DNA of 64,000 nt from the NCBI GenBank assembly GCA_963755285.1, contig CAVWJB010000005.1:94433-158432 (forward strand). Direction: 5' to 3'. Source of the stretch: an uncultured Chloroflexia bacterium (lineage in GTDB: Bacteria > Chloroflexota > Limnocylindria > Limnocylindrales > CSP1-4). Under the pieces are notes generated by a model that saw nothing but the letters and a program-made list of their open reading frames with translations, did no database searches and was not told where the DNA came from. Below, piece by piece: positions 32,183 through 51,784 of the stretch (position 1 is its first letter; each line of letters begins with the position of its first letter). Made by a program: the position numbers and the translations under genes.

Positions 32183-32732
32183 GCGATCCGCTCCGTCTTG
32201 GTGATCGCCCGCTCGTCGGCCTCGAGGGCGGCGCGCAGCGTCTGGGTCGCGTAGTGAAGCCTCGACTTGACCGTCCCGATGGGGATCTCGAGGCTCCTGG
32301 CGATCTCGGCCTGCTCCCAGCCGAGGTAGTGGTGCAGGATGAAGATCGGCCCGATGATCCGGGCGGCAGCCGGCTGAATCCACGCTCGAGCTGATCGCGA
32401 TCGACGACGCTCAACGTCGAGTCCGGCTGGCCTGGTCCGTCGAGCGGCAGCTCCACGATCCGTGCTCTCCAGCGTCGCTGCTGCCTCGCGGCTCGATAGC
32501 AGGCCCGGACGAGGAGTCTCGTGATCCACGGCTCGAAGCGGTCGGGATCGCGCAGGCCTGGCAGGTCGCGCCAGCCATCGATGAGGGCGACCTGGACGGC
32601 GTCCTCGGCCAGGTGGACGTCGCGCAGGATCCGGTAGGCGATCGCCAGCATGCGATCGCCGGTCATCGTCATCAGGCCGGCGAACGCCTCTGCGTCACCC
32701 TTCATCGCTCGTTCCACCAGGTCCCGCTGCAC
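32179..32732 (-). pseudogene. ECF (group IV) sigma-70 factor, sigma2 and sigma4 domains split by a -1 frameshift at a CCC/GGG run (about 32362-32364)
   Basis: Region-2 frame gives ...RILRDVHLAEDAVQVALIDGWRDLPGLRDPDRFEPWITRLL...LERGFSRLPP|; the region-4 frame resumes |(A)RIIGPIFILHHYLGWEQAEIARSLEIPIGTVKSRLHYATQTLR... Confidence 0.7.
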
Positions 32733-32853
32733 CCAGCGCTCCCTTCAGGCGTCGTCGCTGGGACGCTACACCCTGGATGGGGCACGAACGGCCTCGCGAG
32801 TTCGATCCTGGTGGATCGACCGTCGGGTGAGCGCTCCCGTGCAGACTGCCGCG

Positions 32854-34563
32854 ATGAATCTCCAGCCCGATGTCCAGGCTCGGCTCGAGCGTCTGACGAC
32901 CGACCAGCGGGCGGCGGCGACCGCACCGCCGGGGCCGGTGCTCTGCCTCGCACCGGCCGGGAGCGGCAAGACGACGACGCTCGTCGCCCGGATCGCCTGG
33001 CTCGTGGCGACCGGGACGCCGGCCGCGGAGATCGCGGCGATCGCCTTCAACAAGCGCGCCGCGGATGAGCTCGTCGAGCGGATCGACGCCGCACTGGCGC
33101 CGCTCGAGGTTCCGGCGGGGACGGTCCGCGTTCGGACCTTCCACGCCTTCGGTCGCGAGATCCTGCTCGCCGCGGGGCGCTCCGTCGATCCGCTCCTGGA
33201 TCGGGACGCCGCTCATCCGTGCGGTCGCCTCATGGGCCGGTCCCGCCGAGCGACGCCAGCTCGACACGTTGTTCTCGGCGCTCAAGCTCGAGCACCGCGT
33301 GACGGCCGACGTGATCGCCGACGACCCGGCCGCGGGACCGCGCGCTCGGGCGTTCGTCGCCTACGAGCGGGCGCTGGCGGACGCGTGGCGGACTCGACTT
33401 CGACGACCTCGTCGCACGCCCGCTCGCCATGCTCGGTTCGGATCCGGTCCAGCTGGCCTGGTGGCGCTCGGCCTGTCGCGAGCTGCTCGTCGACGAGGTC
33501 CAGGACGTCGATCGGTCCCAGCTCGAGCTGGCACTCCTGATCGCGGCGCCTGCCAACCGGATCTTCCTCGTCGGCGACGACGACCAGTCGATCTATGGCT
33601 GGCGGCTGGCGGACGTCCGGCGAGTCCTGGCGATCGCCGAGCGGCTGCCGGGACTCCGGCGCCACGACCTGATCACGAACTTCCGCTGCCCGGCCCCGGT
33701 CGTCGAGCGGGCCGTGCGGCTCGTCGAGCACAACACCGAGCGGTTCGCCAAGCGGATCGTTGCGCGGCCCGCCGCCGTCGGGCGCATCGTCCTCGCGCCG
33801 GACCCGACCGACGACGACGAACGCGCCTTCCACGTCCTGGCCAGCTGGTCGAGCGTCGCCGGCGACCGACGGCCACGAGACCCAGGCGATCCTCGCCCGG
33901 ACGAATCGCGAGCTGCTGCCCGCCGCCGCCGTCGCGCTCGAGCTCGGGATCCCGTTCCGCGCCGAGCGCTTGAGCCTGCCGCTCGAGGATCCGAGGATCG
34001 ACGATCTGCTGGCCGCGGTCGAAGCCACCGACGACGCGCCGCTCCTCGTTCGGATCGCGAGGCTGCGGAAGGGTGAGCCCGAGGTCGATCCAGCGGATGA
34101 GTCGCCCGACGATGGCCTGTCCTGGGACGAGATCGTTGCCGCGACGCTGGCCTGGGCAGCGCCGTTCGCGGACGGCGGCGAGTTCTGCCGGGCAGTCCGC
34201 CGGCGACGCGAGGACCTTGCCCGACTGCGTCGCGACGATGCCCGGCTGACGCTCGCGACCGCCCATTCGACGAAGGGTCTCGAGTTCGATCACGTCGCCG
34301 TCGTCGACATGGACGCCGGGCGGTTCCCGAGCCAGCGTTCGCTCGACGACGCCGATGACCCGGTCCGTGCCCTCGAGGAGGAGCGCCGCCTGGCCTATGT
34401 GGCGTGGACCCGCGCTCGCCGCTCGCTGACCCTCGTGTACGACCCGGCCGCGCCGAGCCGCTTCCTGCTCGAGGCCTTCGATCCGGACGAAGATGACGGC
34501 CCCAGGCTGACGATCCGTAGCGTCCCGTCAGCCAGTCGCACACGGCTCACGAGATTCGAATGA
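32854..34563 (+). pseudogene. UvrD/Rep-family (superfamily 1) DNA helicase, short form, spread over four frames (three frameshifts near 33210, 33388 and 33850)
   Basis: Successive frames carry Walker A LCLAPAGSGKTTTLVARIAW; then ...GLDFDDLVARPLAMLGSDPVQLA..LLVDEVQDVD..VGDDDQSIYGWRLA; then ...TLATAHSTKGLEFDHVAVVDMD...RRLAYVAWTRARRSLTL. Confidence 0.62.
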
Positions 34564-34583: not shown

Positions 34584-35693
34584 TCAACGCGACGTTCGCA
34601 GAACGCCGAGTTCCCTCATCCGGGACTGCGCCGCCTCGAAGGTGTCGCTCAGGTCGGGCTGGTCCGAGGCCCAGCCGAGGTACTCGTCGACCATCGCTGT
34701 CTGATCGATGGCGGGCGCCCAGCCAAACGCCTTGAGCCGCGAGACATCGCTGAAGATGTGGCGCGTGTCGCCGACCCGGAAGACGCCGGGTATCTCCGGC
34801 CGCACAGAAGACCCGGCGCAGCGGACAACCAGCTCGGCCAACTCGCGAACGGACACCTTGCGATCGCCGCCCACGTTGAAGACGTGACCGACCGCACGCT
34901 CGTCTTCGAAAGCCAGCAGGTTCGCCCGGACAACGTCGTGAACCGAGACGTAGTCCCGGATCTGCTCGCCGTCCTCGAACAGGATTGGCGCACGCCCTGT
35001 AAGGACGCGAACCGCGAACGCCCGGAGCGCTCCCGAATAGGCATTTCGGAATGACTGTCGAGGTCCCTGAACGATCGAATAGCGCAGCGCGACGCTCGGG
35101 ATTGAATATCGCCGGCCCAGGAGCAGGGCGATGTCTTCCTGGTCGCGCTTGGACAGTCCATAGCTGTTGTGAGGATGGGGAACGGCTTCGCTTGTCCAGG
35201 TTGGCTGTGTGGGTCCTCCGCAGACCGGACAGTGGATCGCCCAGTCCTGTTGATCGAGCTGCGCAGGCAACCGTTGGTCCGGGTGCGTGAGGCCGTGGAT
35301 CGGGCAGAGATGGGCCCCCTCGCCGTAGACCGCCTGCGAGGACGCCACGACCACCTTCTGGATCGGCAACCGCTCGGTGACGATCAGCTCGTAAAGGAGG
35401 GCGGTGCCCACGCTGTTGGTGAGGAAGAACCTCGAGAAGTCGGTGAGATAGTCCTGGTACGCGGCGAAGTGAAAGACCGCTTCGACGCCCTGGAGCGCAC
35501 GGTGCAGGACCTCGCGATCGGTCACCCCGCCGTCGATGAACTCGACGTCCGACGGAACGTACTCAGGGCGGCGACCCGTGTGCACGGGCGGTTCGAGCGA
35601 GTCGAGGATGCGCACCTGATGGCCCTTCGCGAGCAGGGCGTCGACCGTGTGCGACCCGATGAATCCTGCCCCGCCCGTGACCAGCACCCTCAC
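34584..35693 (-). CDS. NAD-dependent sugar epimerase/dehydratase (SDR) with an inserted C4 zinc-ribbon (CPIHG...CPVCG)
   Basis: 369 aa from GTG 35693, which overlaps the upstream stop (GTGA). Motifs VLVTGGAGFIGSH, YGLSK catalytic Y-x3-K. Confidence 0.75.
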   Translation of the reverse strand: MRVLVTGGAGFIGSHTVDALLAKGHQVRILDSLEPPVHTGRRPEYVPSDVEFIDGGVTDREVLHRALQGVEAVFHFAAYQDYLTDFSRFFLTNSVGTALLYELIVTERLPIQKVVVASSQAVYGEGAHLCPIHGLTHPDQRLPAQLDQQDWAIHCPVCGGPTQPTWTSEAVPHPHNSYGLSKRDQEDIALLLGRRYSIPSVALRYSIVQGPRQSFRNAYSGALRAFAVRVLTGRAPILFEDGEQIRDYVSVHDVVRANLLAFEDERAVGHVFNVGGDRKVSVRELAELVVRCAGSSVRPEIPGVFRVGDTRHIFSDVSRLKAFGWAPAIDQTAMVDEYLGWASDQPDLSDTFEAAQSRMRELGVLRTSR

Positions 35694-37261
35694 GATGCGC
35701 CCCGCCCCGAAAGGACGGCGGGGACGGTCCGGACCAGAATCTGAAGATCGAGCCCCAAGGACCAGCGCTCGATGTACTCGAGATCGAGACGGAGCCAATC
35801 CTCGAAATCGGTGATCTGGTTTCGACCGGCGACTTGCCAAAGACAGGTGATCCCGGGCTTCACGGCAAGCTTGGCCCGCTGTCGCTCCGAGAATCGGGCG
35901 AATTCGCTCTGGAGCGGCGGACGCGGACCGACCAGGCTCATGTCGCCGACGAGCACGCTCCAGAGCTGGGGCAACTCATCGAGGCTGTAGCGTCGCAGGA
36001 TCCGTCCGACGCGCGTGATCCGAGGATCGCCGCGCATCTTGAAGACGGGGCCTGACATCTCGTTGGCCCCTTCGAGCGCCGCCTTGAGCTCATCGGCATT
36101 GGTCACCATGCTCCGGAACTTGAAGCCGGTGAACGGCCGCCCAGCGCGTCCCACGACACGCCACCGGTAGAGCACCGGTCCCCCGTCACCAAGCTTGATG
36201 GCCAGTGCGATCGCTGCGAGCAACGGGCTCAGGACCACGAGCAGGGTCGCGGAGACGACGACATCGAGGATGCGCTTGGCGGCTCGTTCGGCCGGCGAAC
36301 GGCGAGATCGTGACGATACCGTCTCGCGGGGCGGGTACGGGTCCGCCGTCGTCATCTCCTTCGACTCGAGGCGCTTCGACCGGCCCGCGCTGGTCGCGCT
36401 GGTCGCGAGGACCCGGACGATCCCGGCCGCCAATCCCGCTGCGATGCCCGCATACACAGCGGCATTCACCAGCATCGGATAGCGCGGCGCGATGTTCTTC
36501 CGGTGGTAGAGCACGAGCGAGCGATGGAACTGCCAGACGGTCCGGAGCGGCCGCTGCCCGGTGCTGGTCCCCTTGTGATGCTCGACGACGACGCCAGGGT
36601 GATAGACCACTCGCCAATCCGCCTGCCGAGCGCGCCAGCAGAGATCCTCGTCCTCGCAGTACAGGAAGAACCGCTCGTCAAACCCTCCGATCTGCTCGAT
36701 CACGCGGTGCGGCATCAGCATGAACGCGCCGACCACCGAATCGACGTCTGCCAACTCGTGCTCGTCGAGGTAGGACAGGTAATAGCGGCCAAAGCGCCGG
36801 TGGCGCGGAAACGCCCGGCTGAGCCCCACGGACTTGTAGAAGTACGTCGCGGGGGTCTTGAACGAGCGTCGAGCGGGCGGATCCAGCCGTCCGTCGGGAA
36901 GCAGGATCCGGGCGCCAAGGATGCCCACGTCGGGGTTCGCTCGAAGGTGGGCCAGACCGGTCGAGATGGCGTCCGGGGCGACCAGAGCATCGGGGTTCAG
37001 GAAGAGGATGAACTGACCCCGAGCGACCCGGAGCGCCTGGTTGTTTGCCGCCCCGTAGCCGACGTTGCGAACGTTGCTGATCAGCCGGGTTCCCGGGAAG
37101 ACCTCCGTCGCGGTCGCGCTGCCGTCCTTCGATGCGTTGTCGACGACGAAGACCTCCGTGTCGGGCGGCACGGCCGCGACCAACCGCGAGAGGCACTCGC
37201 GCAGCAGCGGACCACCGTTGTAGTTGACGATGACGACCGAGAGCGACGGTCGGGCGGTCAT
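35690..37261 (-). CDS. bifunctional protein: N-terminal GT2 glycosyltransferase fused to a C-terminal PglC/WecA-type small phosphoglycosyl transferase (Bac_transf domain)
   Basis: 523 aa. Residues 1-about 290: SVVIVNYNGG...VDNASKDGS...DEDLCWR (GT-A). Residues about 330-523: ILDVVVSATLLVVLSPLLAAIALAIKL...FKFRSM...DPRITRVGRILRRYSLDELPQLWSVLVGDMSLVGPRP...PGITCLWQVAGR. Start overlaps the upstream stop (ATGA). Confidence 0.75.
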   Translation of the reverse strand: MTARPSLSVVIVNYNGGPLLRECLSRLVAAVPPDTEVFVVDNASKDGSATATEVFPGTRLISNVRNVGYGAANNQALRVARGQFILFLNPDALVAPDAISTGLAHLRANPDVGILGARILLPDGRLDPPARRSFKTPATYFYKSVGLSRAFPRHRRFGRYYLSYLDEHELADVDSVVGAFMLMPHRVIEQIGGFDERFFLYCEDEDLCWRARQADWRVVYHPGVVVEHHKGTSTGQRPLRTVWQFHRSLVLYHRKNIAPRYPMLVNAAVYAGIAAGLAAGIVRVLATSATSAGRSKRLESKEMTTADPYPPRETVSSRSRRSPAERAAKRILDVVVSATLLVVLSPLLAAIALAIKLGDGGPVLYRWRVVGRAGRPFTGFKFRSMVTNADELKAALEGANEMSGPVFKMRGDPRITRVGRILRRYSLDELPQLWSVLVGDMSLVGPRPPLQSEFARFSERQRAKLAVKPGITCLWQVAGRNQITDFEDWLRLDLEYIERWSLGLDLQILVRTVPAVLSGRGAS

Positions 37262-38472
37262 GCGGCCCGCTCCGCAAGGACCGAGTCGTACAAGGCCTCG
37301 ATCCGGAGGGCATACGCCCCAACCTCGAAGTCCTCGATCGCGCGGATCCGACCCGCGGCTCCCATGCTCCTTGCGCGCGAAGGATCGGCCAGGATCCGCA
37401 GCACGGCGGCCGCCGCCGCCTTCCAGTCGCCGGGCGGGACCAGCTCGCCGGTGAGCCCGTCAACCACGACCTCGCTGATCCCGCCGATGCGAGACGCCAC
37501 GACCGGACGGGCCGTGGCCATCGCCTCGACGAGTACGAGCCCGAACGGTTCGGGACCGGTCGGTGGATGCAGGAGGACATCGATGGCCGCCATGACTTCG
37601 GCGATTTCACCCAAGGTGTATCGCCAGCCGGTGAACAGGATCCGCCCGTCGAGTCCGACATTCGAGGCAAGGTCGCGGACGCCCTGAGCGTAATCCTCGT
37701 ATCCGTGCAGCTCCCCGCCGCAAACGATGAACCGGACATCCGGCCGCTCCAGTGCGATCTCGGCCGCCGCCCGAACGAAGACGTCGGCACCCTTCCACGG
37801 ATCAAGTCGGGCGACGAAGCCCACGACTGGAGTCTCGGGGTCGATCCCCAGCTCGGTCCGGATCCTCGCCCCACTGATCGATGGATGAAACTCTTCCACA
37901 TCGATTCCGTCCGGAATTGGCACGATCGAGGGGCCCAGCCGGTCCCTCGGCCCGAACAGCTCGGCGACCGCGAACGTCATCGGCACCACGCGGCGCGCGC
38001 TAAGGCGCACGACGGATGCCAGAGCGCGGCGCATTGGCTTTGGACCGCTCGGGATCTCCCGGATGTGCCAGACATGAGGGCGCCCGACGAGCAACGACGC
38101 CCACATCCCGTAGAGGGAGTAGAGCGAGTTGGAATGGACCAGTTGGGCACGCTCCCGGCGGATCAACCGAGCGAGCCGAATCACTGCGGGCCAGAATGCC
38201 AGGCAGAAGCGCAACTGGTAGGCCGGGTCCCTGATCGGCCTCAGCTGCAGCATCGGCACGAACCGGACCGGGATCTTGGCGGCTCGAAGGCTGGCCACGA
38301 GTGGGCCGTCTCCCGGGAGGACGACGACGGGCCGGTAGCGTGTGCGGTCGAGGGCTGCCACCAGCCGAAAGAGGGCGATGTCCGAGCCGCCGACCTCCGA
38401 GCTCGGCTGGACATAGACAACCGTAGCCGGGGCACCAGCACGTACCGGATCAGCCGAAGCGGCGACCGTCAC
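37258..38472 (-). CDS. GT4-family glycosyltransferase
   Basis: 404 aa from GTG 38472, which overlaps the acetyltransferase stop (GTGA). C-terminal EPFGLVLVEAMATARPVVASRIGGISEVV motif. Confidence 0.75.
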   Translation of the reverse strand: MTVAASADPVRAGAPATVVYVQPSSEVGGSDIALFRLVAALDRTRYRPVVVLPGDGPLVASLRAAKIPVRFVPMLQLRPIRDPAYQLRFCLAFWPAVIRLARLIRRERAQLVHSNSLYSLYGMWASLLVGRPHVWHIREIPSGPKPMRRALASVVRLSARRVVPMTFAVAELFGPRDRLGPSIVPIPDGIDVEEFHPSISGARIRTELGIDPETPVVGFVARLDPWKGADVFVRAAAEIALERPDVRFIVCGGELHGYEDYAQGVRDLASNVGLDGRILFTGWRYTLGEIAEVMAAIDVLLHPPTGPEPFGLVLVEAMATARPVVASRIGGISEVVVDGLTGELVPPGDWKAAAAAVLRILADPSRARSMGAAGRIRAIEDFEVGAYALRIEALYDSVLAERAA

Positions 38473-39209
38473 GAGGCCGACCGTGCGCGGATGAACCGGG
38501 CAGGATTCCCGGCCACGACGGTCCCCGGGGCCACGTCGTGAGTGACCACGGAGCCCGCGCCGACGACGGATCCCGCGCCGATCTGGATCCCGTCGAGCAC
38601 GATCACCGAGTTGCCGAGCCAGCAATCGTCCTCGACTCGGATCCCGCGCCGGCTGACGCCCTGTTCGTTGATCGGACGGGCGGCATCCGCGAACGCATGG
38701 TCCTCTGCCAGGAGCTGAACGAACGCGCCCATCGTCACGTTCCGGCCGACGTCGATCCCACCCCCGGCGCCGAGGATCGCGTGCGGGCCGATGTACGTGT
38801 CATTCCCCACGCTGAGGCCGACACCAGGATCGGTCAGCTGGCTCGTCACCTGGATCCAGGCGAACTCGCGCACTCGCACGTTGTCGCCAAGGACGACGCC
38901 CCGCTGCCCGTAGCAGTTCATGAAGACGTAGTCACCGATGGCGACGTTCCGGCCAACCCGAAGCCGGTCCGGAAAGAGGATGTTGGTCTGGCGACCGACG
39001 AACAACCGGCCGGTGCATTGACCCAGGCGCGGCCGAAGAAGCAACCCTCGGAGGTACGGCCAGAAGCCCTTCCGATAGCCGTAGTAGACGACGTCGCCGA
39101 GACCCGGACGACCACCCTCAGCCGAGATGGAGGCAACGCGCCGTGGGTCGATCCCCAGCAGCCGAACGTAGAGCCTCGTGGCGAGCGACGGACGAGCCCC
39201 GCCGGCCAT
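38469..39209 (-). CDS. hexapeptide-repeat (left-handed beta-helix) sugar O-acetyltransferase
   Basis: 246 aa; repeated [LIV]G-x-x-x-x-I hexapeptides (VGRNVAIGDYVFM, IGPHAILGAGGGIDVGRNVTMGA, IGAGSVVGAGSVV). Confidence 0.75.
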   Translation of the reverse strand: MAGGARPSLATRLYVRLLGIDPRRVASISAEGGRPGLGDVVYYGYRKGFWPYLRGLLLRPRLGQCTGRLFVGRQTNILFPDRLRVGRNVAIGDYVFMNCYGQRGVVLGDNVRVREFAWIQVTSQLTDPGVGLSVGNDTYIGPHAILGAGGGIDVGRNVTMGAFVQLLAEDHAFADAARPINEQGVSRRGIRVEDDCWLGNSVIVLDGIQIGAGSVVGAGSVVTHDVAPGTVVAGNPARFIRARSAS

Positions 39210-40361: not shown

Positions 40362-41574
40362 TCAGCTCGGTGAAGGAGCCCTCTGGGTCAATCGACCGCA
40401 GGATTCCCTCCACGACGCGCTCTCGGGTGAACCAAGGGATGAGCGCCTCGCACCTTCGGACAGATGCCAGCGCAGGTCCGGTTCGTCCACGAGAGTCTGG
40501 ACCCGCGCGGCGATGCTTGAAGCTGTCGGCTCGACAAAGAATCCGTTCTCGCCATCGACGACGAGCTCGTCCGTCCCGTTGATCCTGGTGACGATCAAGG
40601 GCAGCCCCGCACCCGCGGCCTCGAGGCTCACCAGCGAGAAGGCTTCGTAGGCCGAGGGGTAGACGAAGCAGTCGGCCGCCGCGTAGTAGCCCTCGATGTC
40701 GCGACGATAGCCCGCGAAGACGACGCGATCGCCGATGCCGAGTGCGCGCGATCGCTCGAGGTAGTAGTCGATGTCTTCCTGGCCAACGACGAGGAGCCTG
40801 ACCATGGGGTTCGGCACGAGGGCCAGGGCATCCAGCACGACCTGCAGGCCCTTGCGCTTGAAGTCACCAGCCGCTACGAAGAGGAGGACCAGCGCATCCT
40901 CCGGAATTCCGTGCCGAGTCCGGATTTCACGGCCTCGACGAGCACGCTCGGACGGCGATAGCCGGACACGCTCATCGACCATGTTCGGGACGACATCGAT
41001 CCGATCCTCGCGGACGCCGTAGTAGCGGACCAGCTCACGCTTGGTTCCCGTCGACACCGCAACGACCCGCCGTAGCCCACGCCGTCGATACATTCCGCGC
41101 TCGACCCGGCTGGCGAGTCCAAGGAAGAGCCGGTAGTGCGCATTGCGCAAGCGCTGGCGGACGCTGGTCGAGGGGAGGACGACGCCGCCCTGGCGCAAGC
41201 CGATCCGACCAGGCGGCCGCACAGAAATGGGCGTTCACGACATCCGCGAACAGACAGTCACCGCCGGTCGCCAGGATCACGTCGTACGGGCGGCGACCGG
41301 CGAGCCGATCCACCCAGAACAGGACCGTGTTGGCCAGCAGAAAGCTCACGTAGCGCGCCAGCCTGGGTCGCATGATCATCGGGACACGGCGTCTCACGAG
41401 CGGCGCATCGTCGATGTCCGCGATTTCCCCGGCGATGACCGTCACGTCCACGTGAGCTGCAAGGCCCTCCGCGAGCCAGGAGAGGCACTTCTCGGTGCCG
41501 CCACGCCGACTGAGGGACGGCGTCACGATCGCCACCTTGGGGCGACCCCCGGTTGCTGCACGCGGCGGAGCCAT
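40362..41574 (-). pseudogene. GT4-family glycosyltransferase with a +1 frameshift near 41190-41225
   Basis: N-terminal frame (41574-): Glyco_trans_4-like ...ILATGGDCLFADVVNAHFCAAAW|. C-terminal frame: |...VLPSTSVRQRLRNAHYRLFLGL...EAFSLVSLEAAGAGLPLIVTRINGTDELVVDG... Confidence 0.7.
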
Positions 41575-42742: not shown

Positions 42743-44132
42743 CTCGGATCCTCGGCCGTTTGCTGGATCGCAGCGCCCTGGTCGGCAGCCTCTCCGGCAC
42801 CGGCTCCCACCCCTTGTCCCGCGAGCATGCCTGCGAGGACCCAGAACAGGATGTTCGTCGGCGGATAGTTGATGGGCGTGAAGATCACGGCCTCGACGAG
42901 GAGATAGGCGAACAGGCCGGACGCGATCCATCGACGCTGGTCGGGAGCGATCGCACTCCGCCCCAGGCAGCTCGAAATACCGCTGCGTAGAGCCACACGT
43001 AGACGAGCAGGCCCCAGATCCCGAACATGTAGTAGGGCGAGTACCAGGCGCTCTCGAAGGCGTTGGGCACCTCGCCGGTGACGTAGCGTGCGGCCCCGAG
43101 CGCCGTACCCGTGCCGTGGCCGATGAGGATGTCGCCGATCGACGTATTCGCGGCGAAGCCCGCGAGGACCGGACCAAGTCGGTTGGCAAACGGGTCAACG
43201 CCACTCGTCAGGCCAGGCAGCCGGTTTTCGAGGACCGGGGCCCCGACGGTTGCCACGAGCGCGATCGCGATCAGGACGACCGGCGCCGCGCGGCCGGCTC
43301 CCCGAAGCTGTCGATTGAGCAGATAGATCAGGACGATCGCAACCGGCATCAGGACCCAGGTCGTCCGTTGCGCCTGGAGGACGATCGCGATCCCCGCGAG
43401 CGCGAAGGCGACGGTCAGAGCAACACGTCCGGGAATGGTCGACGGCGCATGGAGGGCCGCGAAGCCGACGACTCCGAGGAACAGCAGGTATGAGCCGAAG
43501 TGCCCGACGAACGCGAATGTTGACGCCGGCCGGAAGATCACGTCCGACGTCGCTTCGGGGCCCACGATCCAGATCGATCGCGCAAAGCCGGGACCCAGCG
43601 CTGCGACGGCATCGGGTCCGGCGAGGTATTCCGCGATCCCGAAGACGGTGATTGGGATCGAGGCGAGGATGAGGAAGACCGCCAGCCGATCCGTCTCCAG
43701 GCCGGACCTGACGAGGTGGAAGCCCAGGACGAAGAGCGGGATGTAGAACACGAGGACCCGGAAGCCGACCAGGGCGACCAGTGGGTCGTAGCCCCGCGGA
43801 TTGAACGCCTCGACGACGCACAGGGCCACCAGGGCGACATACGGATACGCCACCCACTTGGGAACCATCCATCGCTCCTGCCGGACGAGAAGCGATGTCC
43901 CGAACCCCACGTAGGCGCCGGCGATCAGGCCGTCCTTGAGCAGGACGGGGTACGTCTCCGGGTAGAGCAGGTTGCCGACCAGCCCCTCGACGGTCACGTA
44001 GACGAGCACGGCGAGGATCCCCCACCGCCAGCGCAGCGTCACGGCGAACGCGATCCCCGCACCGATCAGCACGGTCGCCCGCGCGAAGTCCCACCCGAGC
44101 GAGGCCGTGGCGGCGAAGAACCCGCCGAGCAC
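42739..44132 (-). pseudogene. O-antigen ligase / Wzy-type polymerase family membrane protein with a frameshift at the CCCC (minus GGGG) run 42961-42964
   Basis: Twelve-TM Wzy_C-like protein. The frame leaves after ...WLYAAVFRAAWG and the real C-terminus ...RSAIAPDQRRWIASGLFAYLLVEAVIFTPINYPP... is in the next frame. Adding one G to the run joins them exactly (AAWGRSAIAPDQRRW). Confidence 0.6.
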
Positions 44133-44213: not shown

Positions 44214-45179
44214 TCATGCCTCGACGCGCACCGAGGCATCGCGCGGCGAGCCCAGGTACGCGCGCAGTCCGGCGATCTTGCCCGAGAAGTGGACGCCGAC
44301 CGACGCCCAGGACCAACCGTCTCTGAGGATCAGGAGCGGCACGCGTGCCACCCCAACGGAGTTCCGGTCGCCGATCAGGGTCGTGTACAGGACGAAGGCG
44401 ATCTTGCGGGTCAGGGACAGCCGCTTCAGCAGCACGTAGGTCTGGTTCCGATTGACCGTCCAGGCGATCGGCGATGAGGCGCTGTAGTCGGTCGTTGGGT
44501 AGTGGTCCACCACAATCGCCGGGTCGAAGATCACCCGCTGGCCGAGTCCACGAATGTGGAGCCCCAGATCGATCTCAAAGCCGTAGGGAACGGGCCCAGC
44601 CAGGCGATCATCGATCTTCGGGAGCAACGAGCGGCGGAAGCTCATGTTGACGCCCTTCAGGAAGTCGACGTCACGCGCTCCGACCGCCGGGCGGTGATGG
44701 TTGCCGACCAGCCTTCCCCACCATCGGACACGACCGACGTCCCGGACCGTGTGCTCGGGTACGGGGTCGCCCCTCCGGATCACGTCGCGTCCGCCAACGG
44801 CGCCGACGGACGGATCGACGTACCAGTGGGCGATGCGCTCGAGCCAGTCCGGTCTGGCTACCGCGTCGTCGTCCATGAATCCGACGATGCCGGCGCTGGC
44901 GACCGCCAGCCCAGCATTCTCCTTGGCCACGACCGTGTTGTCGGCGGTGACGACCAATCGCAGGCCGGTCTGGCTCGCCGCCCAGGTCGACCCGAGCTGG
45001 AGCCGGCGGACGGTCTCGAGCGTCGGCCCGTCCTCGGCCCACGCGGCCACGATCAACTCGGCGGGCGGTTGCGTCTGCTGGCCCAGGGATTCGATGGCGC
45101 GGGCGAGCGCCTCGGGTCGGGCGTAGGTTGCCACGATGATCGAAATGGTCGAATCCATGGGCGGTCCGGAGACGCTCAT
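44214..45179 (-). CDS. GT2-family glycosyltransferase
   Basis: 321 aa; ISIIVATYARPEALARAIESL...MDDDAV... (GT-A, DxD). Confidence 0.75.
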   Translation of the reverse strand: MSVSGPPMDSTISIIVATYARPEALARAIESLGQQTQPPAELIVAAWAEDGPTLETVRRLQLGSTWAASQTGLRLVVTADNTVVAKENAGLAVASAGIVGFMDDDAVARPDWLERIAHWYVDPSVGAVGGRDVIRRGDPVPEHTVRDVGRVRWWGRLVGNHHRPAVGARDVDFLKGVNMSFRRSLLPKIDDRLAGPVPYGFEIDLGLHIRGLGQRVIFDPAIVVDHYPTTDYSASSPIAWTVNRNQTYVLLKRLSLTRKIAFVLYTTLIGDRNSVGVARVPLLILRDGWSWASVGVHFSGKIAGLRAYLGSPRDASVRVEA

Positions 45180-47634: not shown

Positions 47635-48664
47635 ATGCGGCCAGACAGCGCTCGGCCGTTGCCTGCCAGGTGAACCGTCCGGTCACCTGCGAGCGGGCCG
47701 ATCTCCCAAGGCGATCTGACAGCTCCGGATCGGCGAGGAATTTCGCGATGGTCGCGCGCAGCGCGTCGGGGTCGGTGGCCGGGACAACGAATCCCGTGGT
47801 GCCGTCCTCGACGACCTCGGACTCCGGTCCGGGCTCCATGCAGATCACGGGCGTGGCACAGGCCATCGATTCCAGCAGCACCAGGCCGAGAAGCTCGGCC
47901 TGTCGCCACGACGGTAGAACGGTCACCAGGCTCGTCCGATAGGCCATCACGACGTCGCGATCCGATGCGTCCGTGACGAACTCGACGGAGCGCCCGGCTG
48001 CGCGGCGCTTGAGGGCGTCGAAGTACTCCGAGTCGTATGGCCGGCCAATGACGAGCAGCGGAACGTCGGGATCGACCGCGTCGATCAGCTGTTCGATGCC
48101 CTTGCTCGGGATCAGCCGTCCGACGAACAGGATCTGTCGCTTCCTCGCCACGTTGGCTGGCGAGAACTGTTCGACGTCTGCGCCGCCGTAGATGACCCCC
48201 GCGCGGCGACCGAACTCCGGGTAGCGCGACGCCGCGTAGCGGGACACGAACAGGAAGCGATCGACCAACCGTCCCATCGGCAGGATGCGCGCCAGGCTCA
48301 CGTCCGCCCCCCCACCCTGGTCGGTGACGAACACGTGCTTGCCGCTGAGCTTGCCGTAGAGCACCGCGAGGTCGGTTGGCAGGACGTGCCAGGCAAGGCA
48401 GTGGATGACATCGACATCGCGAAGCGCATTCAGGAACCGCGGGTTGAACGGGTTGTTCAGCCGTCCGCGCACCAGCCACCTTCGCGGATAGACCTCGATT
48501 CGCAGGCGTCCTTCCTGACGACGCTCCCGATGGCGGCCGAACGTCACGAGCCGGGTATCCACCTCCTCGGCGAGGGCATGGGCGAGCTCCTGCGCATAGC
48601 GCTCACCACCGCCGACATGACCCTCGTCACCGAACTCGATTGGGTAGACGATCGCGACCTTCAT
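47627..48664 (-). CDS. GT4-family glycosyltransferase
   Basis: 345 aa; ...FVGRLIPSKGIEQLIDA...ELLGLVLLESMACATPVICMEPGPESEVVEDGTTG... Confidence 0.72.
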   Translation of the reverse strand: MKVAIVYPIEFGDEGHVGGGERYAQELAHALAEEVDTRLVTFGRHRERRQEGRLRIEVYPRRWLVRGRLNNPFNPRFLNALRDVDVIHCLAWHVLPTDLAVLYGKLSGKHVFVTDQGGGADVSLARILPMGRLVDRFLFVSRYAASRYPEFGRRAGVIYGGADVEQFSPANVARKRQILFVGRLIPSKGIEQLIDAVDPDVPLLVIGRPYDSEYFDALKRRAAGRSVEFVTDASDRDVVMAYRTSLVTVLPSWRQAELLGLVLLESMACATPVICMEPGPESEVVEDGTTGFVVPATDPDALRATIAKFLADPELSDRLGRSARSQVTGRFTWQATAERCLAAYG

Positions 48665-50142
48665 CGATCCGAACCCTGGGCGGCCGGCCGGCGGAGTCGG
48701 CCAGCTCGACCGAGGTAGCTGCGCAGGCTGCCGATGAGCCCGGGCGTTGTCCCGAGCAGGACCAGGGCGGCGACGATCGATCCGCAGACCGTGGCGATCG
48801 GGGCTCCGACCGGGGTGAGGAGGACGACCGCCGCGCCGCCCGCACCAATAGCCGCGAGGCCGTGCACCAGGGGGCGCAGCGGCAGGTCCCGGCCGATCCG
48901 CCGCCTGCCCAGCCCGACTGTCAGACCCAGGATCAGGGCATTCGTCGCGAGAACCGCGAGGGCCGCACCCGTCGCTCCCGCGGCCGGGACGAGCAGCACC
49001 AGGAGGATGACGACACTCGGGAGCGCCGCGAACAGGACCATCAGGTTGATCCGCTGGAACCCGGCGGCCGTGAGCGATTCAGCTACGAGGATCGACGGGA
49101 ACAGCAGGCCCACGGCGGCCAGGAGGAGCATGAAGGGCACGACCGAGGCCACGAATCCGGGGCCGAACAGGACGCGGACGAGCAGCGGTCCAAAGCCAAT
49201 CCCAAGGATCACAACCGGGACAGCCGCCAGGAGGGCCACCGAGACGAGACGGTCGAGGATCCTCCTGAACTCGAGTCGGTTTCCGACCCAGCTCCGTGCC
49301 AGCAAGGGGAATGTCGTCGTCCGGAGGATCAGCGGGATCAAGGCCAGCTGGACGGGAACGCGACTGGCCGCGTGAAAGAGGCCGACGGCGGCAAGGTTGG
49401 TCGAGGACAGCAACAGCACCGGGGCTTGCTGGATCGCGGTTCCCAACACGGTGCCCAGGCCGAGGGGCCACGACTCACCGACGAAGTAACGCCAATGCAC
49501 GACCGAGGGCCGGGTCAGGGCCACCAGACCGAGGCTCAGACGGAGGGTCCAGCCATCGGAGATCAATCGCGCTGCCAGGGCCGCCCCGGCGAGGGCAACG
49601 ATCGAACCGCCGGCGAGGAGCACGCCCAGGGTGAGGACGAAATGGAGCCCGACGCCCGTGAGCGCCGGTCCAAGGAGCCGAGTGAGCCGCAGCTCGGCCT
49701 GGAACGGGAGGGCCAGCAGCGCGGCGGGCTCCAGGAACACGATGAGTCCGTAGAGCGCGATAGCCTGCTGCACGGCGACCGGGAACCCGACGAAGACGAG
49801 CCCGGCCAGCATCAGGAGGTAGGCGGTCGAGGACGCAATCAGTTGCAGCGCGGCTCCGCTGGCCAGGAGACCGGCGCGCTCGTCGGGGCGCCGCGAGATC
49901 TCCCGAAGGAGTACCGTCCCGAGGCCCCACTCCGCGAAGACGCCATCGAAGGTGGCGACGTAGGCGAAGACCAGGGCGTAGGCACCAAAGCCGGCAACAC
50001 CGAGATAGCGGGCCAGGGCTGCGACCAGGATCAGCCCGGTGGCGATCCGCAGTCCGGGACTGATCAGCTGGACGAGCGTGTTGCTGACGACTCGTTGGTT
50101 CAACGAAGCCGTGACGAGGTCCTCGTCGGCGTCCACCGCCAT
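48661..50142 (-). CDS. wzx: oligosaccharide/polysaccharide flippase (Wzx, MOP superfamily)
   Basis: 493 aa, about 12-14 TM segments, N-terminus NTLVQLISPGLRIATGLILVAALARYLGVAGFGAYAL typical of Polysacc_synt flippases. Confidence 0.72.
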   Translation of the reverse strand: MAVDADEDLVTASLNQRVVSNTLVQLISPGLRIATGLILVAALARYLGVAGFGAYALVFAYVATFDGVFAEWGLGTVLLREISRRPDERAGLLASGAALQLIASSTAYLLMLAGLVFVGFPVAVQQAIALYGLIVFLEPAALLALPFQAELRLTRLLGPALTGVGLHFVLTLGVLLAGGSIVALAGAALAARLISDGWTLRLSLGLVALTRPSVVHWRYFVGESWPLGLGTVLGTAIQQAPVLLLSSTNLAAVGLFHAASRVPVQLALIPLILRTTTFPLLARSWVGNRLEFRRILDRLVSVALLAAVPVVILGIGFGPLLVRVLFGPGFVASVVPFMLLLAAVGLLFPSILVAESLTAAGFQRINLMVLFAALPSVVILLVLLVPAAGATGAALAVLATNALILGLTVGLGRRRIGRDLPLRPLVHGLAAIGAGGAAVVLLTPVGAPIATVCGSIVAALVLLGTTPGLIGSLRSYLGRAGRLRRPAAQGSDR

Positions 50143-50195: not shown

Positions 50196-50753
50196 TCACT
50201 TGCGGACGGCGAGCTCGATGCTCATGAAGAACGCGGGTTGGATCCAGCACAGGTGGCGTTCATAGAAAGCCGGCCACCGATTGGCCAGGCGGCGCATCAG
50301 GGCGTTCATGCGGGACGGGTGGAAGACGAGGAGCCGCCGGACATAGGCGAACCTCTTGTCCGTGTAATACGGATGAGCGGACGATCCGGTGAAGAAGTCG
50401 AAGCTGAACATCCCGAATTGATGGCAGTGGGTCGGATCGGTGAAGGCGTTGGCGCAGCTGAAGTGCGGCGTGGTGACGAAGACCCGTGCGCCCGGCCTGG
50501 ATACCCGATGGATCTCGTCCATCGTCGCGACGGTGTCCGGCAGGTGCTCGAGGATGTCGTGGCACCAGACCTCACGGAAGGCCTCGCTGGGAAAGGGCCA
50601 GGGAAACACGCGGAGGTCATGAACCACGTCCGGCCGACAGCTGGCATTCAGGTCGACGTTGAGCGCGCCGATCCTCGGGCTGAGTCCGCTACCGAGAACC
50701 AGGACGTCCGCAACAGACGCCGGCGTCCTGACGGGAAGCGTGAGCGTCGTCAC
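50196..50753 (-). CDS. class I SAM-dependent methyltransferase (Methyltransf_11/23-like)
   Basis: 185 aa from GTG 50753, which overlaps the dehydratase stop (GTGA). Motif I VLVLGSG; ...HDILEHLPD... Confidence 0.62.
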   Translation of the reverse strand: MTTLTLPVRTPASVADVLVLGSGLSPRIGALNVDLNASCRPDVVHDLRVFPWPFPSEAFREVWCHDILEHLPDTVATMDEIHRVSRPGARVFVTTPHFSCANAFTDPTHCHQFGMFSFDFFTGSSAHPYYTDKRFAYVRRLLVFHPSRMNALMRRLANRWPAFYERHLCWIQPAFFMSIELAVRK

Positions 50754-51784
50754 GGCATACCGGCAGGCGCCAGAGCGTCCTTGATGGCCGGAGTTGGCGA
50801 GGACAGGAACTGCCGGTACCACCTCACGGTGCGATCGAGTCCGTCCTCGAGACCCACGTCCGGCTGCCAGCCTAGGGTCAGCCTGGCCAGGGTGCTGTCG
50901 AGGAACTGGCGGTCGATTTCCGCCGGGGGCACTCCCCCGCCCCGAATGTCAAGAGCGATGTCCTCGGACTTGCATGCCTCGAGAACACGGCGGAGCATGT
51001 CGAGGACCGAGATCGGTTGACCGCCTCCGAAGTTGAACGCGTAGTCGCCCGTGTCGACCTGCGCGAACCGTTCCCCGAGCGTCAGGTACGCCGCAACGGC
51101 GTCGTCCACATGGAGGTAGTCCCGAACCGGGGATCCGTCGCTGCGCAGGACCGGACGCTCGCCCGTCAGAACCGAGCGGATCGTTCCGGGGATCAGACGG
51201 CTGAAGTTCAGGTCCCCGCCGCCATAGATGTTGGCGCATCGGGCGACGGCAACGTCGAGCCCGAAGGTCGCTCGATACGAGCGCACGAGCAGCTCGGCAC
51301 AGGCCTTCGAGGCATCGTACGGATTGACCCCAAGGAGGGCCATCTCTTCGGTGTAGGGCAGCGTGGGCTGGGAGCCATAGGCCTTGTCGCTCGAGGCGAC
51401 GATCAACCGCTCCACGAGCGGTGCGGTGCGGCACGCCTCGAGGATGATCCACGTCCCCCGCACGTTGGATTCGAACGTCGACACGGGCGACCGATTGGCC
51501 GCGCCGACAATTGCCTGGGCGGCGAGGTGGTAGACCGTGTCCACCTCGTATTCGTTCAGCGCGCGTTCGACGGTGGCGGCATCGACGATCGATCCGCGTA
51601 CGACGTTCACCCGATCGGCCAGGCCCAGCAGGTCGAAGTTGGTGAGCCGCGGCTCGTCTCGAAGGATCGCCGTGACGAGCGCGCCACGATCGACCAGGGC
51701 ACTCGCCAGCCAGGAGCCCACAAAGCCCCCGGCCCCGGTGACCAGGACGTTCCTGTCCCGCCAGAACGTCGACGTCACCGTCAT
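50750..51784 (-). CDS. CDP-glucose 4,6-dehydratase (RfbG/DdhB-like SDR)
   Basis: 344 aa from ATG 51784 (MTVTSTFWRDRNVLVTGAGGFVGSWL...), with the HLAAQ..., SSDKAYG, YDASKACAEL pattern of CDP-glucose 4,6-dehydratases. Overlaps the upstream stop (ATGA). Confidence 0.72.
   Translation of the reverse strand: MTVTSTFWRDRNVLVTGAGGFVGSWLASALVDRGALVTAILRDEPRLTNFDLLGLADRVNVVRGSIVDAATVERALNEYEVDTVYHLAAQAIVGAANRSPVSTFESNVRGTWIILEACRTAPLVERLIVASSDKAYGSQPTLPYTEEMALLGVNPYDASKACAELLVRSYRATFGLDVAVARCANIYGGGDLNFSRLIPGTIRSVLTGERPVLRSDGSPVRDYLHVDDAVAAYLTLGERFAQVDTGDYAFNFGGGQPISVLDMLRRVLEACKSEDIALDIRGGGVPPAEIDRQFLDSTLARLTLGWQPDVGLEDGLDRTVRWYRQFLSSPTPAIKDALAPAGMP

What the first reader, a model, noticed from the sequence alone, without database searches (positions are those of the whole stretch)
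35690..37261. Single polypeptide fusing a GT2 glycosyltransferase to a PglC-type phosphoglycosyl transferase
One uninterrupted 523-aa ORF carries an N-terminal GT-A/GT2 domain (VVIVNYNGG...DNAS...DED) followed by a complete small Bac_transf domain with the re-entrant helix and the DELPQL/GDMSLVGPRP catalytic core. The fused product would both prime undecaprenyl phosphate and add the second sugar. It is translationally coupled on both sides (ATGA upstream, GTGA downstream) inside the glycan operon. Such initiator-GT fusions are uncommon. The sequence is continuous and the domain boundary lacks a start codon, so it appears genuine rather than a mis-joined gene pair.
Basis: seen in the sequence. 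Interest (0 to 1): 0.6.

Follow-up and report, generated by a model that had tools for sequence, protein, structure and literature searches.

The report
Glycosyltransferase fused to glycan-priming enzyme
One gene in a soil Chloroflexia sugar-polymer operon really does join a family-2 glycosyltransferase to the enzyme that starts glycan assembly on the lipid carrier, but such 'bifunctional' primers are already a recognised class, so this is a well-supported, fairly ordinary new member.

Summary
Window 35690..37261 (minus strand) is one 523-aa ORF. It has a GT2/GT-A domain (res 5-235), a two-helix tail, a disordered basic linker (about 292-322), and a complete monotopic phosphoglycosyl-transferase (PGT) core (res 329-517) with the Asp428-Glu429 dyad and a Ser345-Pro346 re-entrant helix. 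It overlaps both neighbouring genes by 4 nt.

The fusion is not an assembly artefact. Eight proteins at 57-90% identity from separate assemblies, and syntenic MAG loci, keep the same single ORF, while the linker varies in sequence and length.

Close relatives (70-73% and about 55% identity) have the same two genes split, with GTGA/ATGA overlaps or an abutting stop and start. Fusion and fission have therefore happened several times.

The architecture belongs to the published "bifunctional monoPGT (Bi-PGT)" class, and I found four GT2+PGT arrangements in the databases. "PglC-type" is right only for the size. The core is WbaP/EpsZ-like, so probably a hexose-1-P transferase.

The claim that it adds the second sugar is inferred, not shown.

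The same operon also holds a conserved Lg-PGT-like family in which Arg-Gly replaces the catalytic Asp-Glu. That is more unusual than the fusion itself.

The parts
35690..37261 (-). Whole Bi-PGT gene (523 codons plus TGA): GT2 domain, tail helices, linker, small monoPGT core.
   Evidence: Orthologues keep a single ORF.
36557..37249 (-). GT2 / GT-A glycosyltransferase domain (res 5-235). Acidic motifs D41 (VVDNAS), N89-P90-D91 and E203-D204-E205-D206.
   Evidence: Pfam PF13641 and PF00535. The motifs are invariant in 9 fused orthologues. GT-A fold matches, e.g. 6p61 with target-normalised TM-score (TMt) 0.83.
36389..36550 (-). GT2 C-terminal tail: helices 238-260 and 263-291. The second holds the moderately hydrophobic Ala/Gly-rich segment 262-287, with invariant N266 and Y270. 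Both flanks are net +5, so it is inferred to be an interfacial or non-spanning membrane anchor.
   Evidence: AF2 model, hydropathy and charge, conservation.
36296..36388 (-). Interdomain linker (about res 292-322). It is disordered, rich in Ser/Arg, and variable in sequence and length among orthologues. It contains ATG codon 303 (36355..36353), probably a relic of the ancestral PGT start.
   Evidence: pLDDT below 50 for res 298-314. Alignment A1. Composition. DNA read.
36188..36295 (-). Re-entrant membrane helix of the PGT core (res 323-358). It is preceded by K329-R330 and has a helix break at S345-P346.
   Evidence: AF2 helices 323-343 and 345-358. Aligns to the WbaP re-entrant helix.
35711..36277 (-). 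Bac_transf (monotopic PGT) catalytic core, res 329-517.
   Evidence: PF02397 E 5.8e-65. WbaP E 6e-47. Foldseek match to PglC 8e37/8g1n, target-normalised TM-score (TMt) 0.72-0.77.
35975..35980 (-). Catalytic Asp428-Glu429 dyad (GAT GAG) in SLDELPQL.
   Evidence: Sequence. Aligned to LDELPQL of WbaP. Invariant in orthologues.
34584..35693 (-). Downstream SDR epimerase/dehydratase (369 aa, GalE-like). Its GTG start overlaps the Bi-PGT stop (GTGA). It is the likely supplier of the PGT's nucleotide sugar (inferred).
   Evidence: The same PGT-then-epimerase order is seen in L001, L082 and L090.
37258..38472 (-). Upstream GT4 glycosyltransferase (about 404 aa, from GTG at 38472). Its stop overlaps the Bi-PGT ATG (ATGA).
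   Evidence: L001 orthologue is 404 aa.
38469..39209 (-). Hexapeptide-repeat (WcaF/WbbJ-like) O-acetyltransferase. It overlaps the GT4 start by 4 nt.
53604..55010 (-). Second PGT-superfamily gene of the cluster: an Lg-PGT-like protein (TM bundle, PF13727, re-entrant helix). It lacks about 35 aa of the catalytic core and has Arg-Gly in place of Asp-Glu. It overlaps by 4 nt an HddA-like GHMP kinase (55007..56071). It may be a non-catalytic partner of the Bi-PGT.

Best explanation
The gene encodes a bifunctional monotopic phosphoglycosyl transferase (Bi-PGT) of an uncultured soil Chloroflexia bacterium.

The C-terminal core has a re-entrant helix and an Asp428-Glu429 dyad. It transfers a sugar-1-phosphate from a UDP-sugar to polyprenyl phosphate at the cytoplasmic face of the membrane. 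The sugar is most likely a hexose such as Gal or Glc, because the core is WbaP/EpsZ/WcaJ-like and a GalE-like epimerase is translationally coupled downstream.

The N-terminal GT-A/GT2 domain is held at the same membrane face by its own tail helix and a roughly 30-residue flexible basic linker. It then glycosylates the nascent polyprenyl-PP-sugar, most likely adding the second residue. The many GT4 enzymes of the operon extend the unit, and a Wzy-like protein and a putative flippase finish the job.

The fusion arose from two adjacent genes (GT2, then small PGT) that were translationally coupled through a 4-nt start/stop overlap. Close relatives still have that arrangement.

Shown: the domain identities, intact catalytic motifs, fold, conservation of the single ORF, the split relatives, and the operon context.

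Inferred: the sugar specificity, that the GT2 step directly follows priming, and that both domains face the cytoplasm.
For: Domains and motifs:
- Both domains score far above Pfam thresholds. The best NCBIfam matches are EPS_sugtrans, EpsZ, WbaP and WcaJ.
- The core aligns to WbaP through LDELPQL and SLVGPRP.
- D41, NPD91, EDED203-206, K329/R330, P346, D428/E429 and PRP446-448 are invariant in 9 fused sequences of 57-90% identity. S345 is kept in 7 of the 9 (Ala in P0005, Gly in P0007). The linker varies and loses about 30 residues in P0008.

Structure:
- AF2 model: mean pLDDT 91, disordered linker at 298-314, helix break at 344/345.
- Foldseek matches PglC for the C-terminal domain (target-normalised TM-score, TMt, 0.72-0.77) and GT-A enzymes for the N-terminal domain.

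The fusion is real:
- Fused orthologues occur in JGI, ENA and Logan assemblies and in Chloroflexia MAGs, with the same neighbours: GT4 upstream and epimerase downstream.

Origin from a split pair:
- Split relatives keep the GT2-then-PGT order, with GTGA (L082, L085), ATGA (L009) or TAA followed directly by GTG (L005).
- Each non-clade fused form has a close split relative: 90/91%, 87/89% and 70/77% identity (GT2 part / PGT part).

Topology:
- There are only two hydrophobic segments. The linker carries 11 Lys/Arg (net +5), which fits a cytoplasmic location.

This is the initiator of the locus:
- It is the only Asp-Glu-bearing PGT core in the 64-kb window.

Literature:
- The Bi-PGT class is defined as monoPGT cores fused to glycosyltransferases or acetyltransferases (PMC11626204; PMC10942596; PMC10186338).
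Against: - No activity data exist for this protein or any orthologue found.
- Fusion shows functional linkage but not that the GT2 step is the second one. The operon holds at least seven other GTs.
- Foldseek and PDB matches for the GT2 domain are generic and give no donor or acceptor.
- If the GT2 tail helix (262-287) spans the membrane, the simple 'both domains cytoplasmic' picture fails unless the PGT helix also spans. Only charge bias argues against this.
- The interdomain geometry is uncertain (pTM 0.68).
- The nearest genome, L002 (97% identity), has a 1-nt insertion at codon 28. The gene is therefore broken or mis-assembled there, and these long-read MAGs carry indel errors.
- More distant GT2 homologues (L006, L007) are not next to a PGT.
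Confidence: 0.7

Rival explanations
1. The fusion is an assembly or sequencing artefact. A 1-nt indel near a 4-nt start/stop overlap would have merged two separate genes (GT2 and small PGT).
For: - Close relatives really are split, with GTGA/ATGA overlaps where a single indel could fuse them.
- The window and its 97%-identical relative L002 differ by 20 gap openings in 12.7 kb.
- L002 has a frameshift at codon 28 of this very gene.
- Other genes in the window look frameshifted, e.g. UvrD and a GT4.
Against: - The same continuous ORF, with an alignable linker (RRSPAERAAKR, MTTA), recurs in at least 8 other sequences. They come from JGI, ENA and Logan assemblies and from MAG loci at 84-90% identity.
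- The linker stays in frame despite many substitutions and indels of whole codons.
Confidence: 0.02
2. The fusion is genuine, but the GT2 domain does not add the second sugar. It acts later in repeat-unit assembly, or makes a polyprenyl-monophosphate sugar (GtrB/DPMS-like). The fusion would serve only to recruit it to the membrane or to fix its stoichiometry with the initiator.
For: - The operon encodes at least seven other GTs that could take step 2.
- The GT2 domain has its own hydrophobic tail and aligns over 327 columns with the membrane-anchored mannosyltransferase PcManGT, 6yv7.
- Related stand-alone GT2 genes occur without an adjacent PGT (L006, L007).
Against: - GT2-then-PGT adjacency or fusion is kept from about 54% to 97% identity and arose repeatedly. 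That is the usual signature of consecutive steps.
- The NCBIfam similarities are to lipid-PP-glycan GT2s (EpsD, HpsE/HpsN, the rhamnosyltransferase family), not to GtrB/ArnC/DPMS models.
- There is only one tail helix, whereas GtrB/DPMS enzymes have a helix pair (the latter from my own knowledge).
Confidence: 0.22
3. One half is a non-catalytic relic, so the protein has a single function. Either the GT2 domain is only an anchor or regulator, or the PGT core is only a lipid-binding module.
For: Dyad-less PGT homologues do exist in this very operon, so dead domains occur in this lineage.
Against: All acidic motifs of the GT-A domain, and the dyad, the PRP motif and the re-entrant-helix proline (P346) of the PGT core, are invariant across orthologues down to 57% identity. 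S345 is kept in 7 of 9. Both domains are modelled with pLDDT above 90.
Confidence: 0.05

Closest known systems
Bifunctional monotopic phosphoglycosyl transferases (Bi-PGTs) of the monoPGT superfamily. Named after a published sequence-similarity-network study; described in PMC10942596, PMC10186338 and PMC11626204; examples purified in PMC12776464.
   Same: A monoPGT catalytic core with a second catalytic domain, here a glycosyltransferase, fused to its N-terminus in one polypeptide. Re-entrant helix, Asp-Glu dyad and PRP motif are all present.
   Different: No characterised member with this exact GT2 partner or from Chloroflexia was found in the literature I could read. This lineage switches between fused and split forms among close relatives. 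I could not open the original network paper to see whether this cluster is listed.
WbaP / EpsZ / WcaJ (large monoPGTs; hexose-1-phosphate transferases; PDB 8t53, 9s7s and others)
   Same: The closest sequence relatives of the PGT core: E 6e-47 to WbaP, and 60-66% identity to the cores of roughly 470-aa Lg-PGTs. The catalytic motifs are the same.
   Different: It lacks the N-terminal four-helix bundle and the PF13727 domain. A GT2 domain occupies the N-terminus instead.
PglC of Campylobacter (small monoPGT; PDB 8e37, 8g1n)
   Same: The same minimal core architecture and fold: target-normalised TM-score (TMt) 0.72-0.77 over the full length of PglC.
   Different: Only 32-33% identity, and a much weaker sequence match than to WbaP. 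PglC is a stand-alone enzyme specific for UDP-diNAcBac, and nothing here suggests that substrate.
Neisseria PglB (PGT-acetyltransferase Bi-PGT)
   Same: A bifunctional monoPGT in which a pathway-neighbour enzyme is fused to the core (listed as a Bi-PGT in PMC12776464).
   Different: The partner there is an acetyltransferase acting on the UDP-sugar before priming. Here it is a GT-A glycosyltransferase expected to act after priming.

Membership tests
Monotopic PGT superfamily (Pfam PF02397 Bac_transf; PglC/WbaP fold) | Full-length match to the Bac_transf profile above the curated cut-off | tested here: met
   218.6 bits against a cut-off of 27; profile positions 1-178 of 179; res 329-517.
Monotopic PGT superfamily (Pfam PF02397 Bac_transf; PglC/WbaP fold) | Catalytic Asp-Glu dyad | tested here: met
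   D428-E429 in SLDELPQL, aligned to LDELPQL of WbaP. Invariant in orthologues. 108 hits of the control set have DE at this position.
Monotopic PGT superfamily (Pfam PF02397 Bac_transf; PglC/WbaP fold) | N-terminal re-entrant membrane helix with a Ser-Pro break, preceded by basic residues | tested here: met
   K329-R330. The hydrophobic stretch 333-358 contains S345-P346. AF2 gives helices 323-343 and 345-358. True re-entrant topology in a membrane cannot be tested here.
Monotopic PGT superfamily (Pfam PF02397 Bac_transf; PglC/WbaP fold) | Fold similarity to a solved monoPGT | tested here: met
   Foldseek: PglC 8e37/8g1n, E about 1e-13, target-normalised TM-score (TMt) 0.72-0.77.
Monotopic PGT superfamily (Pfam PF02397 Bac_transf; PglC/WbaP fold) | Transfers sugar-1-phosphate from an NDP-sugar to polyprenyl phosphate | not testable with these tools
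   Needs an enzyme assay.
Bi-PGT class (bifunctional monoPGT) | [quoted passage not shown] | tested here: met
   GT2 domain at res 5-235, N-terminal to the core, in one ORF without a stop. The ORF is conserved in 8 other sequences and in syntenic loci.
Bi-PGT class (bifunctional monoPGT) | Both activities present in the one protein | not testable with these tools
   Only the conservation of catalytic motifs in both halves could be shown.
Small monoPGT (core only, 'PglC-type') | No four-helix TM bundle and no PF13727 domain before the core | tested here: met
   No PF13727 hit. Only two hydrophobic segments in the whole protein. Split relatives encode 210-227-aa stand-alone cores.
Small monoPGT (core only, 'PglC-type') | Sequence kinship with PglC proper (the UDP-diNAcBac enzymes) | tested here: not met
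   PglC E 2.5e-24 against WbaP E 6e-47. The best NCBIfam models are EPS_sugtrans, EpsZ, WbaP and WcaJ. The nearest cluster representatives are roughly 470-aa Lg-PGTs.
GT2 (GT-A fold, inverting glycosyltransferases) | Match to GT2 profiles above threshold, and a GT-A fold | tested here: met
   PF00535 83.3 bits and PF13641 77.8 bits. GT-A structural hits include 6p61 (target-normalised TM-score, TMt, 0.83), WrtF and GlfT2.
GT2 (GT-A fold, inverting glycosyltransferases) | Conserved acidic nucleotide/metal-binding and catalytic motifs (D...DxD-type...ED) | tested here: met
   D41, N89-P90-D91 and E203-D204-E205-D206 are invariant in the fused set. Residues 203-206 are at least 90% conserved when split homologues are added.
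GT2 (GT-A fold, inverting glycosyltransferases) | The acceptor is the polyprenyl-PP-monosaccharide made by the fused PGT (second step) | not testable with these tools
   Inferred from the conserved adjacency or fusion only.

The most novel reading that the evidence does not exclude
The live PGT core of this Bi-PGT may not work alone. It may pair with the Lg-PGT-like protein encoded 16 kb upstream (53604..55010).

That protein belongs to a conserved family, apparently undescribed in the literature I could search. The family keeps the TM bundle, the PF13727 domain, the re-entrant helix and the SLVGPRP motif. It has lost about 35 residues of the active site and carries Arg-Gly instead of the Asp-Glu nucleophile.

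The pair would form a pseudo-heterodimer, with a catalytic small core plus a non-catalytic large scaffold, mimicking the WbaP homodimer. In some Chloroflexi the two are even fused in tandem (622-aa proteins: a dyad-less domain with Ala/Val/Cys-Lys at the dyad position, followed by a live one).

Alternatively, the Arg-Gly family is itself a mechanistically different initiator tied to an HddA-type sugar-kinase/nucleotidyl-transferase module.
Probability: 0.2. Interest if true: 0.65.

Novelty: new member of a known kind. Interest (0 to 1): 0.3.

Why it matters
For the fusion itself the value is modest but real.
- A PGT fused to the glycosyltransferase that probably acts next gives a free pairing of initiator and second enzyme. 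That is normally hard to assign in glycan operons.
- This lineage offers natural fused and split versions at about 90% identity. They would be good material for asking what fusion buys: channelling of the lipid-linked intermediate, stoichiometry, or membrane recruitment.
- It also adds an example from Chloroflexia; the characterised or purified monoPGTs in the papers I read come from other phyla.

The larger potential lies in the by-product. The same clusters hold a widespread, conserved PGT-like family without the catalytic dyad. If it is a scaffold or regulator of small PGT cores, it would bear on the unexplained role of the accessory domains of large PGTs.

Tried and rejected
1. The first AF2 run used a 27-sequence alignment and gave an unusable PGT half (pLDDT 30-60). 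I repeated it with 58 sequences, including trimmed PGT cores.
2. Foldseek against the PDB gave only generic GT-A hits for the GT2 domain, so no donor or acceptor could be assigned.
3. I tried to open the original monoPGT network paper by DOI and by a guessed PMC id. It is not held, so class frequencies come only from my own hit lists.
4. I tested whether the fused linkers are simply the other reading frame of the split relatives' junction DNA. They are not recognisably so. P0008 looks like a junction-spanning deletion instead.
5. I checked whether more distant stand-alone GT2 homologues (L006, L007) are followed by a PGT. They are not.
6. I looked for a live PGT within 10 kb of the Arg-Gly Lg-PGT-like genes in five other loci. 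None was found, except in the tandem dyad-less/live proteins. The pairing idea therefore stays weak.
7. A literature search for 'phosphoglycosyl transferase' plus 'pseudoenzyme' found nothing.
8. The AAGGAG directly in front of ATG303 was considered as an internal ribosome-binding site. I set it aside because there is no spacer and it is not conserved in orthologues.
Full report
**1. Observation**

The ORF listing and translation confirm one uninterrupted 523-codon ORF at 35690..37261, on the minus strand.

Pfam places GT2 profiles at the N-terminus: PF00535 at res 8-132 (E 2.5e-23) and PF13641 at res 5-235 (E 1.7e-21). A complete Bac_transf domain lies at res 329-517 (E 5.8e-65, profile positions 1-178 of 179).

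The ATG overlaps the stop of an upstream GT4 gene (ATGA, 37261..37258). The TGA overlaps the GTG of a downstream SDR epimerase (GTGA, 35693..35690). A further GTGA at 38472..38469 couples a hexapeptide acetyltransferase to the GT4 gene.

**2. Is the fusion real?**

The 5.8-billion-protein search returned eight proteins of 493-522 aa with 99-100% coverage, 57-90% identity and the same domain pair. They come from JGI, ENA and Logan assemblies.

One of them (P0004, 84%) lies on a 379-kb contig with the same neighbours: acetyltransferase-like gene, GT4, fusion, epimerase, then UvrD/UvrC/SecDF.

The genome collection gives full-length matches in uncultured Chloroflexia MAGs: L002 at 97%, L003 and L004 at 84%. 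The organism is therefore a soil Chloroflexia relative.

In the alignment of the nine fused sequences, both domains are highly conserved. The stretch between them differs in sequence and length, and P0008 lacks about 30 residues there, yet it always stays in frame. That pattern fits a selected linker, not a mis-join.

One caveat: L002 carries a 1-nt insertion at codon 28 and differs from the window by 20 gap openings in 12.7 kb. These long-read MAGs do contain indel errors. The independent short-read assemblies settle the matter.

**3. Fused or split in relatives?**

Both states occur.
- P0014 (70% identity) and P0011 (73%) are 299-301-aa stand-alone GT2 proteins. On their contigs they are followed, with a GTGA overlap, by a 213-227-aa small PGT. 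The neighbouring genes match the window: GT4 upstream in L084, epimerase downstream in L082.
- An Acidobacteria-labelled MAG (L009, 54%) has the pair with an ATGA overlap.
- A groundwater Chloroflexi MAG (L005, 55%) has TAA followed immediately by an in-frame GTG.

Each fused form outside the window's own clade has a split nearest relative (identity given as GT2 part / PGT part):

| Fused | Split | Identity |
|---|---|---|
| P0007 | L085 | 90/91% |
| P0008 | L082 | 87/89% |
| P0009 | L009 | 70/77% |

Fusion or fission has therefore happened at least three or four times.

The fused linkers are unrelated between clades, and P0008 looks like a deletion across the junction. I consider repeated fusion of a translationally coupled pair the more likely direction. 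That direction is inference.

**4. How common is the architecture?**

An exhaustive profile search of 1.84 billion cluster representatives, combined with domain-wise BLAST of all 269 proteins fetched up to that point, gave 41 proteins with both domains. They fall into four layouts:
- GT2 then small PGT (about 480-531 aa). This includes three unrelated clusters: P0125, P0197 and P0239.
- GT2 then large PGT (about 690-783 aa).
- Large PGT then GT2 (about 740-772 aa).
- Small PGT then GT2 (551-589 aa).

A GT4-then-small-PGT fusion also exists whose core is 70-72% identical to this one (P0092).

The literature already names this class. [quoted passage not shown] Several have been expressed and purified (PMC12776464).

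**5. What kind of PGT and GT2?**

*The PGT core*
- By sequence the core is WbaP/EpsZ/WcaJ-like. The best NCBIfam matches are to the last 200 residues of EPS_sugtrans, EpsZ, WbaP and WcaJ.
- PDB WbaP chains score E 6e-47 against 2.5e-24 for PglC.
- The nearest 50%-cluster representatives (60-66% identity) are roughly 470-aa large PGTs.
- 'PglC-type' therefore holds only for the small, core-only architecture and the fold.
- The dyad D428-E429, the PRP motif, K329/R330 and P346 are invariant in the fused set; S345 is kept in 7 of the 9.

*The GT2 domain*
- It keeps D41, N89-P90-D91 and E203-D204-E205-D206.
- Its solved structural neighbours are generic GT-A enzymes.

*The structure model*
- The second AF2 model has mean pLDDT 91.
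- It shows the GT-A core, two tail helices (238-260 and 263-291), a disordered linker (298-314), a helix-break-helix at 323-343 / 345-358, and the PGT core.
- The C-terminal half superposes on PglC with a target-normalised TM-score (TMt) of 0.72-0.77.
- No solved chain covers both halves.

*The linker ATG*
- The linker holds an ATG at codon 303 (36355..36353), kept in five of the six closest orthologues.
- I read it as a relic of the old PGT start.
- The AAGGAG in front of it has no spacer and is not conserved, so internal initiation is unlikely.

**6. Topology**

There are only two hydrophobic segments: 262-287 (Kyte-Doolittle 1.9, Ala/Gly-rich) and 333-358 (2.5). The stretch between them (res 288-333, spanning the linker) has 11 Lys/Arg and a net charge of +5. 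The flank before segment 262-287 is also +5.

By the positive-inside rule the linker is cytoplasmic. The GT2 tail helix is then interfacial or non-spanning, and both active sites face the cytoplasmic leaflet. The short linker in P0008 is also strongly basic, which agrees. This is inference.

**7. Operon**

On the same strand, reading upstream from the epimerase:
- Bi-PGT
- GT4
- O-acetyltransferase
- several GT4 genes
- a weakly Wzy_C-like membrane protein (42885..44132)
- a GT2 (44214..45179)
- more GT4 genes
- a 493-aa protein with no family hit (48661..50142)
- methyltransferases
- a CDP-glucose-4,6-dehydratase-like SDR (50750..52024)
- glucose-1-phosphate cytidylyltransferase (52807..53580)
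- an Lg-PGT-like gene (53604..55010)
- an HddA-like GHMP kinase (55007..56071)
- a guanylyltransferase-like NTP transferase (56071..56820)

The Bi-PGT holds the only Asp-Glu-bearing PGT core in the 64-kb window. It is therefore the best candidate for the initiator of this glycan.

**8. By-product: a dyad-less Lg-PGT-like family**

*The window gene*
- The gene at 53604..55010 has the TM region, PF13727 and a re-entrant-helix-like segment.
- It matches Bac_transf only from profile position 91 onward.
- It reads VRGMPALVAVLVGDMSLVGPRP where live enzymes read SLDELPQL...GDMSLVGPRP, and about 35 residues of the core are missing.

*It is not a decaying pseudogene*
- A search found more than 100 full-length homologues at 46-91% identity with the same deletion.
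- Of the 95 homologues with a recognisable motif, 82 have Arg-Gly at the dyad position and none has Asp-Glu in that domain.
- The control set of live PGTs has Asp-Glu in 108 cases.

*Tandem forms*
- Seven homologues (506-622 aa; Chloroflexi MAGs) carry a dyad-less domain, with Ala/Val/Cys-Lys at the dyad position, followed by a complete live small-PGT core in the same polypeptide.

*Conserved neighbourhood*
- In six of six loci, counting the window, the gene directly follows an HddA-like GHMP kinase. An NTP transferase lies alongside in five of the six (missing in L087 and in L090), and SIS or HAD genes are usually nearby; no SIS gene was identified in the window.
- In the tandem locus, an SDR epimerase follows, as it does after the Bi-PGT here.

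*Link to the Bi-PGT*
- Members of the 91%-identity cluster of this gene lie on the same contigs as the Bi-PGT orthologues L002 and L004.
- In five other loci, however, no live PGT lies within 10 kb.
- A partnership with the Bi-PGT is therefore only a hypothesis.
- I found no paper in the held library linking PGTs with pseudoenzymes.

**9. Verdict**

The finding is real and well supported. It is a new member of a known class (Bi-PGT), not a new kind of enzyme.

The two-step 'prime and add the second sugar' function is the most likely reading but is untested.

Interest is moderate to low. The added points of interest are the repeated fusion and fission among close relatives and the neighbouring dyad-less Lg-PGT-like family.

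Noticed in passing
window 53604..55010 (-): An Lg-PGT-like protein (TM bundle, PF13727, re-entrant helix, SLVGPRP). It lacks about 35 aa of the catalytic core and has Arg-Gly in place of the Asp-Glu dyad. It belongs to a conserved family: more than 100 homologues at 46-91% identity, and 82 of 95 with a recognisable motif have Arg-Gly. Seven homologues (506-622 aa) are tandem proteins with a dyad-less domain (Ala/Val/Cys-Lys at the dyad position) followed by a live core.
   Followed up: partly
window 55007..56820 (-); also L087, L088, L089, L090: Conserved gene string ending in an HddA-like GHMP kinase. The kinase overlaps the Arg-Gly Lg-PGT-like gene by 4 nt in the window and directly precedes it in the other loci. 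It is seen in 6 of 6 loci examined; an NTP transferase accompanies it in five of the six (absent in L087 and L090), and SIS and/or HAD genes in most of the other loci (no SIS gene found in the window). This suggests a dedicated activated sugar, possibly a heptose, linked to that protein.
   Followed up: partly
window 36353..36355 (codon 303 of the Bi-PGT): An ATG inside the interdomain linker, conserved as 'MTTA' (MTPT in one) in 5 of the 6 closest orthologues. It is probably a relic of the ancestral small-PGT start codon. It is preceded directly by AAGGAG with no spacer, which is not conserved.
   Followed up: partly
L002:10001-11564 (CAVOVX010000008.1, 97% identical MAG): The orthologous Bi-PGT gene has a 1-nt insertion at codon 28 and a 6-nt in-frame deletion at codons 284-286. 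There are 20 gap openings in 12.7 kb against the window. This points to long-read assembly indels, or to a pseudogene in that genome.
   Followed up: partly
window 32650..34563 (+): A UvrD-like helicase appears broken across three overlapping ORFs in different frames: 32650..33540 (N-terminal domain), 33065..33973, and 33760..34563 (C-terminal domain). The orthologous locus L001 also has it in pieces. Either frameshift errors or a pseudogene.
   Followed up: no
window 40362..41574 (-): A GT4 gene seems split. ORF 40362..41222 carries the C-terminal half. The overlapping ORF 41035..41574 has a weak match to the N-terminal GT4 domain. L001 shows similar GT4 fragments (100 aa plus 180 aa).
   Followed up: no
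window 50196..53580 (-): A CDP-sugar module: glucose-1-phosphate cytidylyltransferase (52807..53580; TIGR02623, E 2e-79), a CDP-glucose-4,6-dehydratase-like SDR (50750..52024), and two methyltransferases (52094..52852 and 50196..50822). It implies a methylated 6-deoxy- or dideoxy-hexose in the glycan.
   Followed up: no
L003:4470-6029 and L004:10001-11560: Two contigs of the same MAG (MFD03975.bin.2.87) each carry a 99-100% identical copy of the Bi-PGT gene. This is either a duplicated region or strain haplotypes binned together.
   Followed up: no
P0092 (629 aa, ENA): A GT4 (GT-B fold) domain fused N-terminally to a small PGT core that is 70-72% identical to this one. The same core lineage has been captured by different glycosyltransferase partners.
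   Followed up: no
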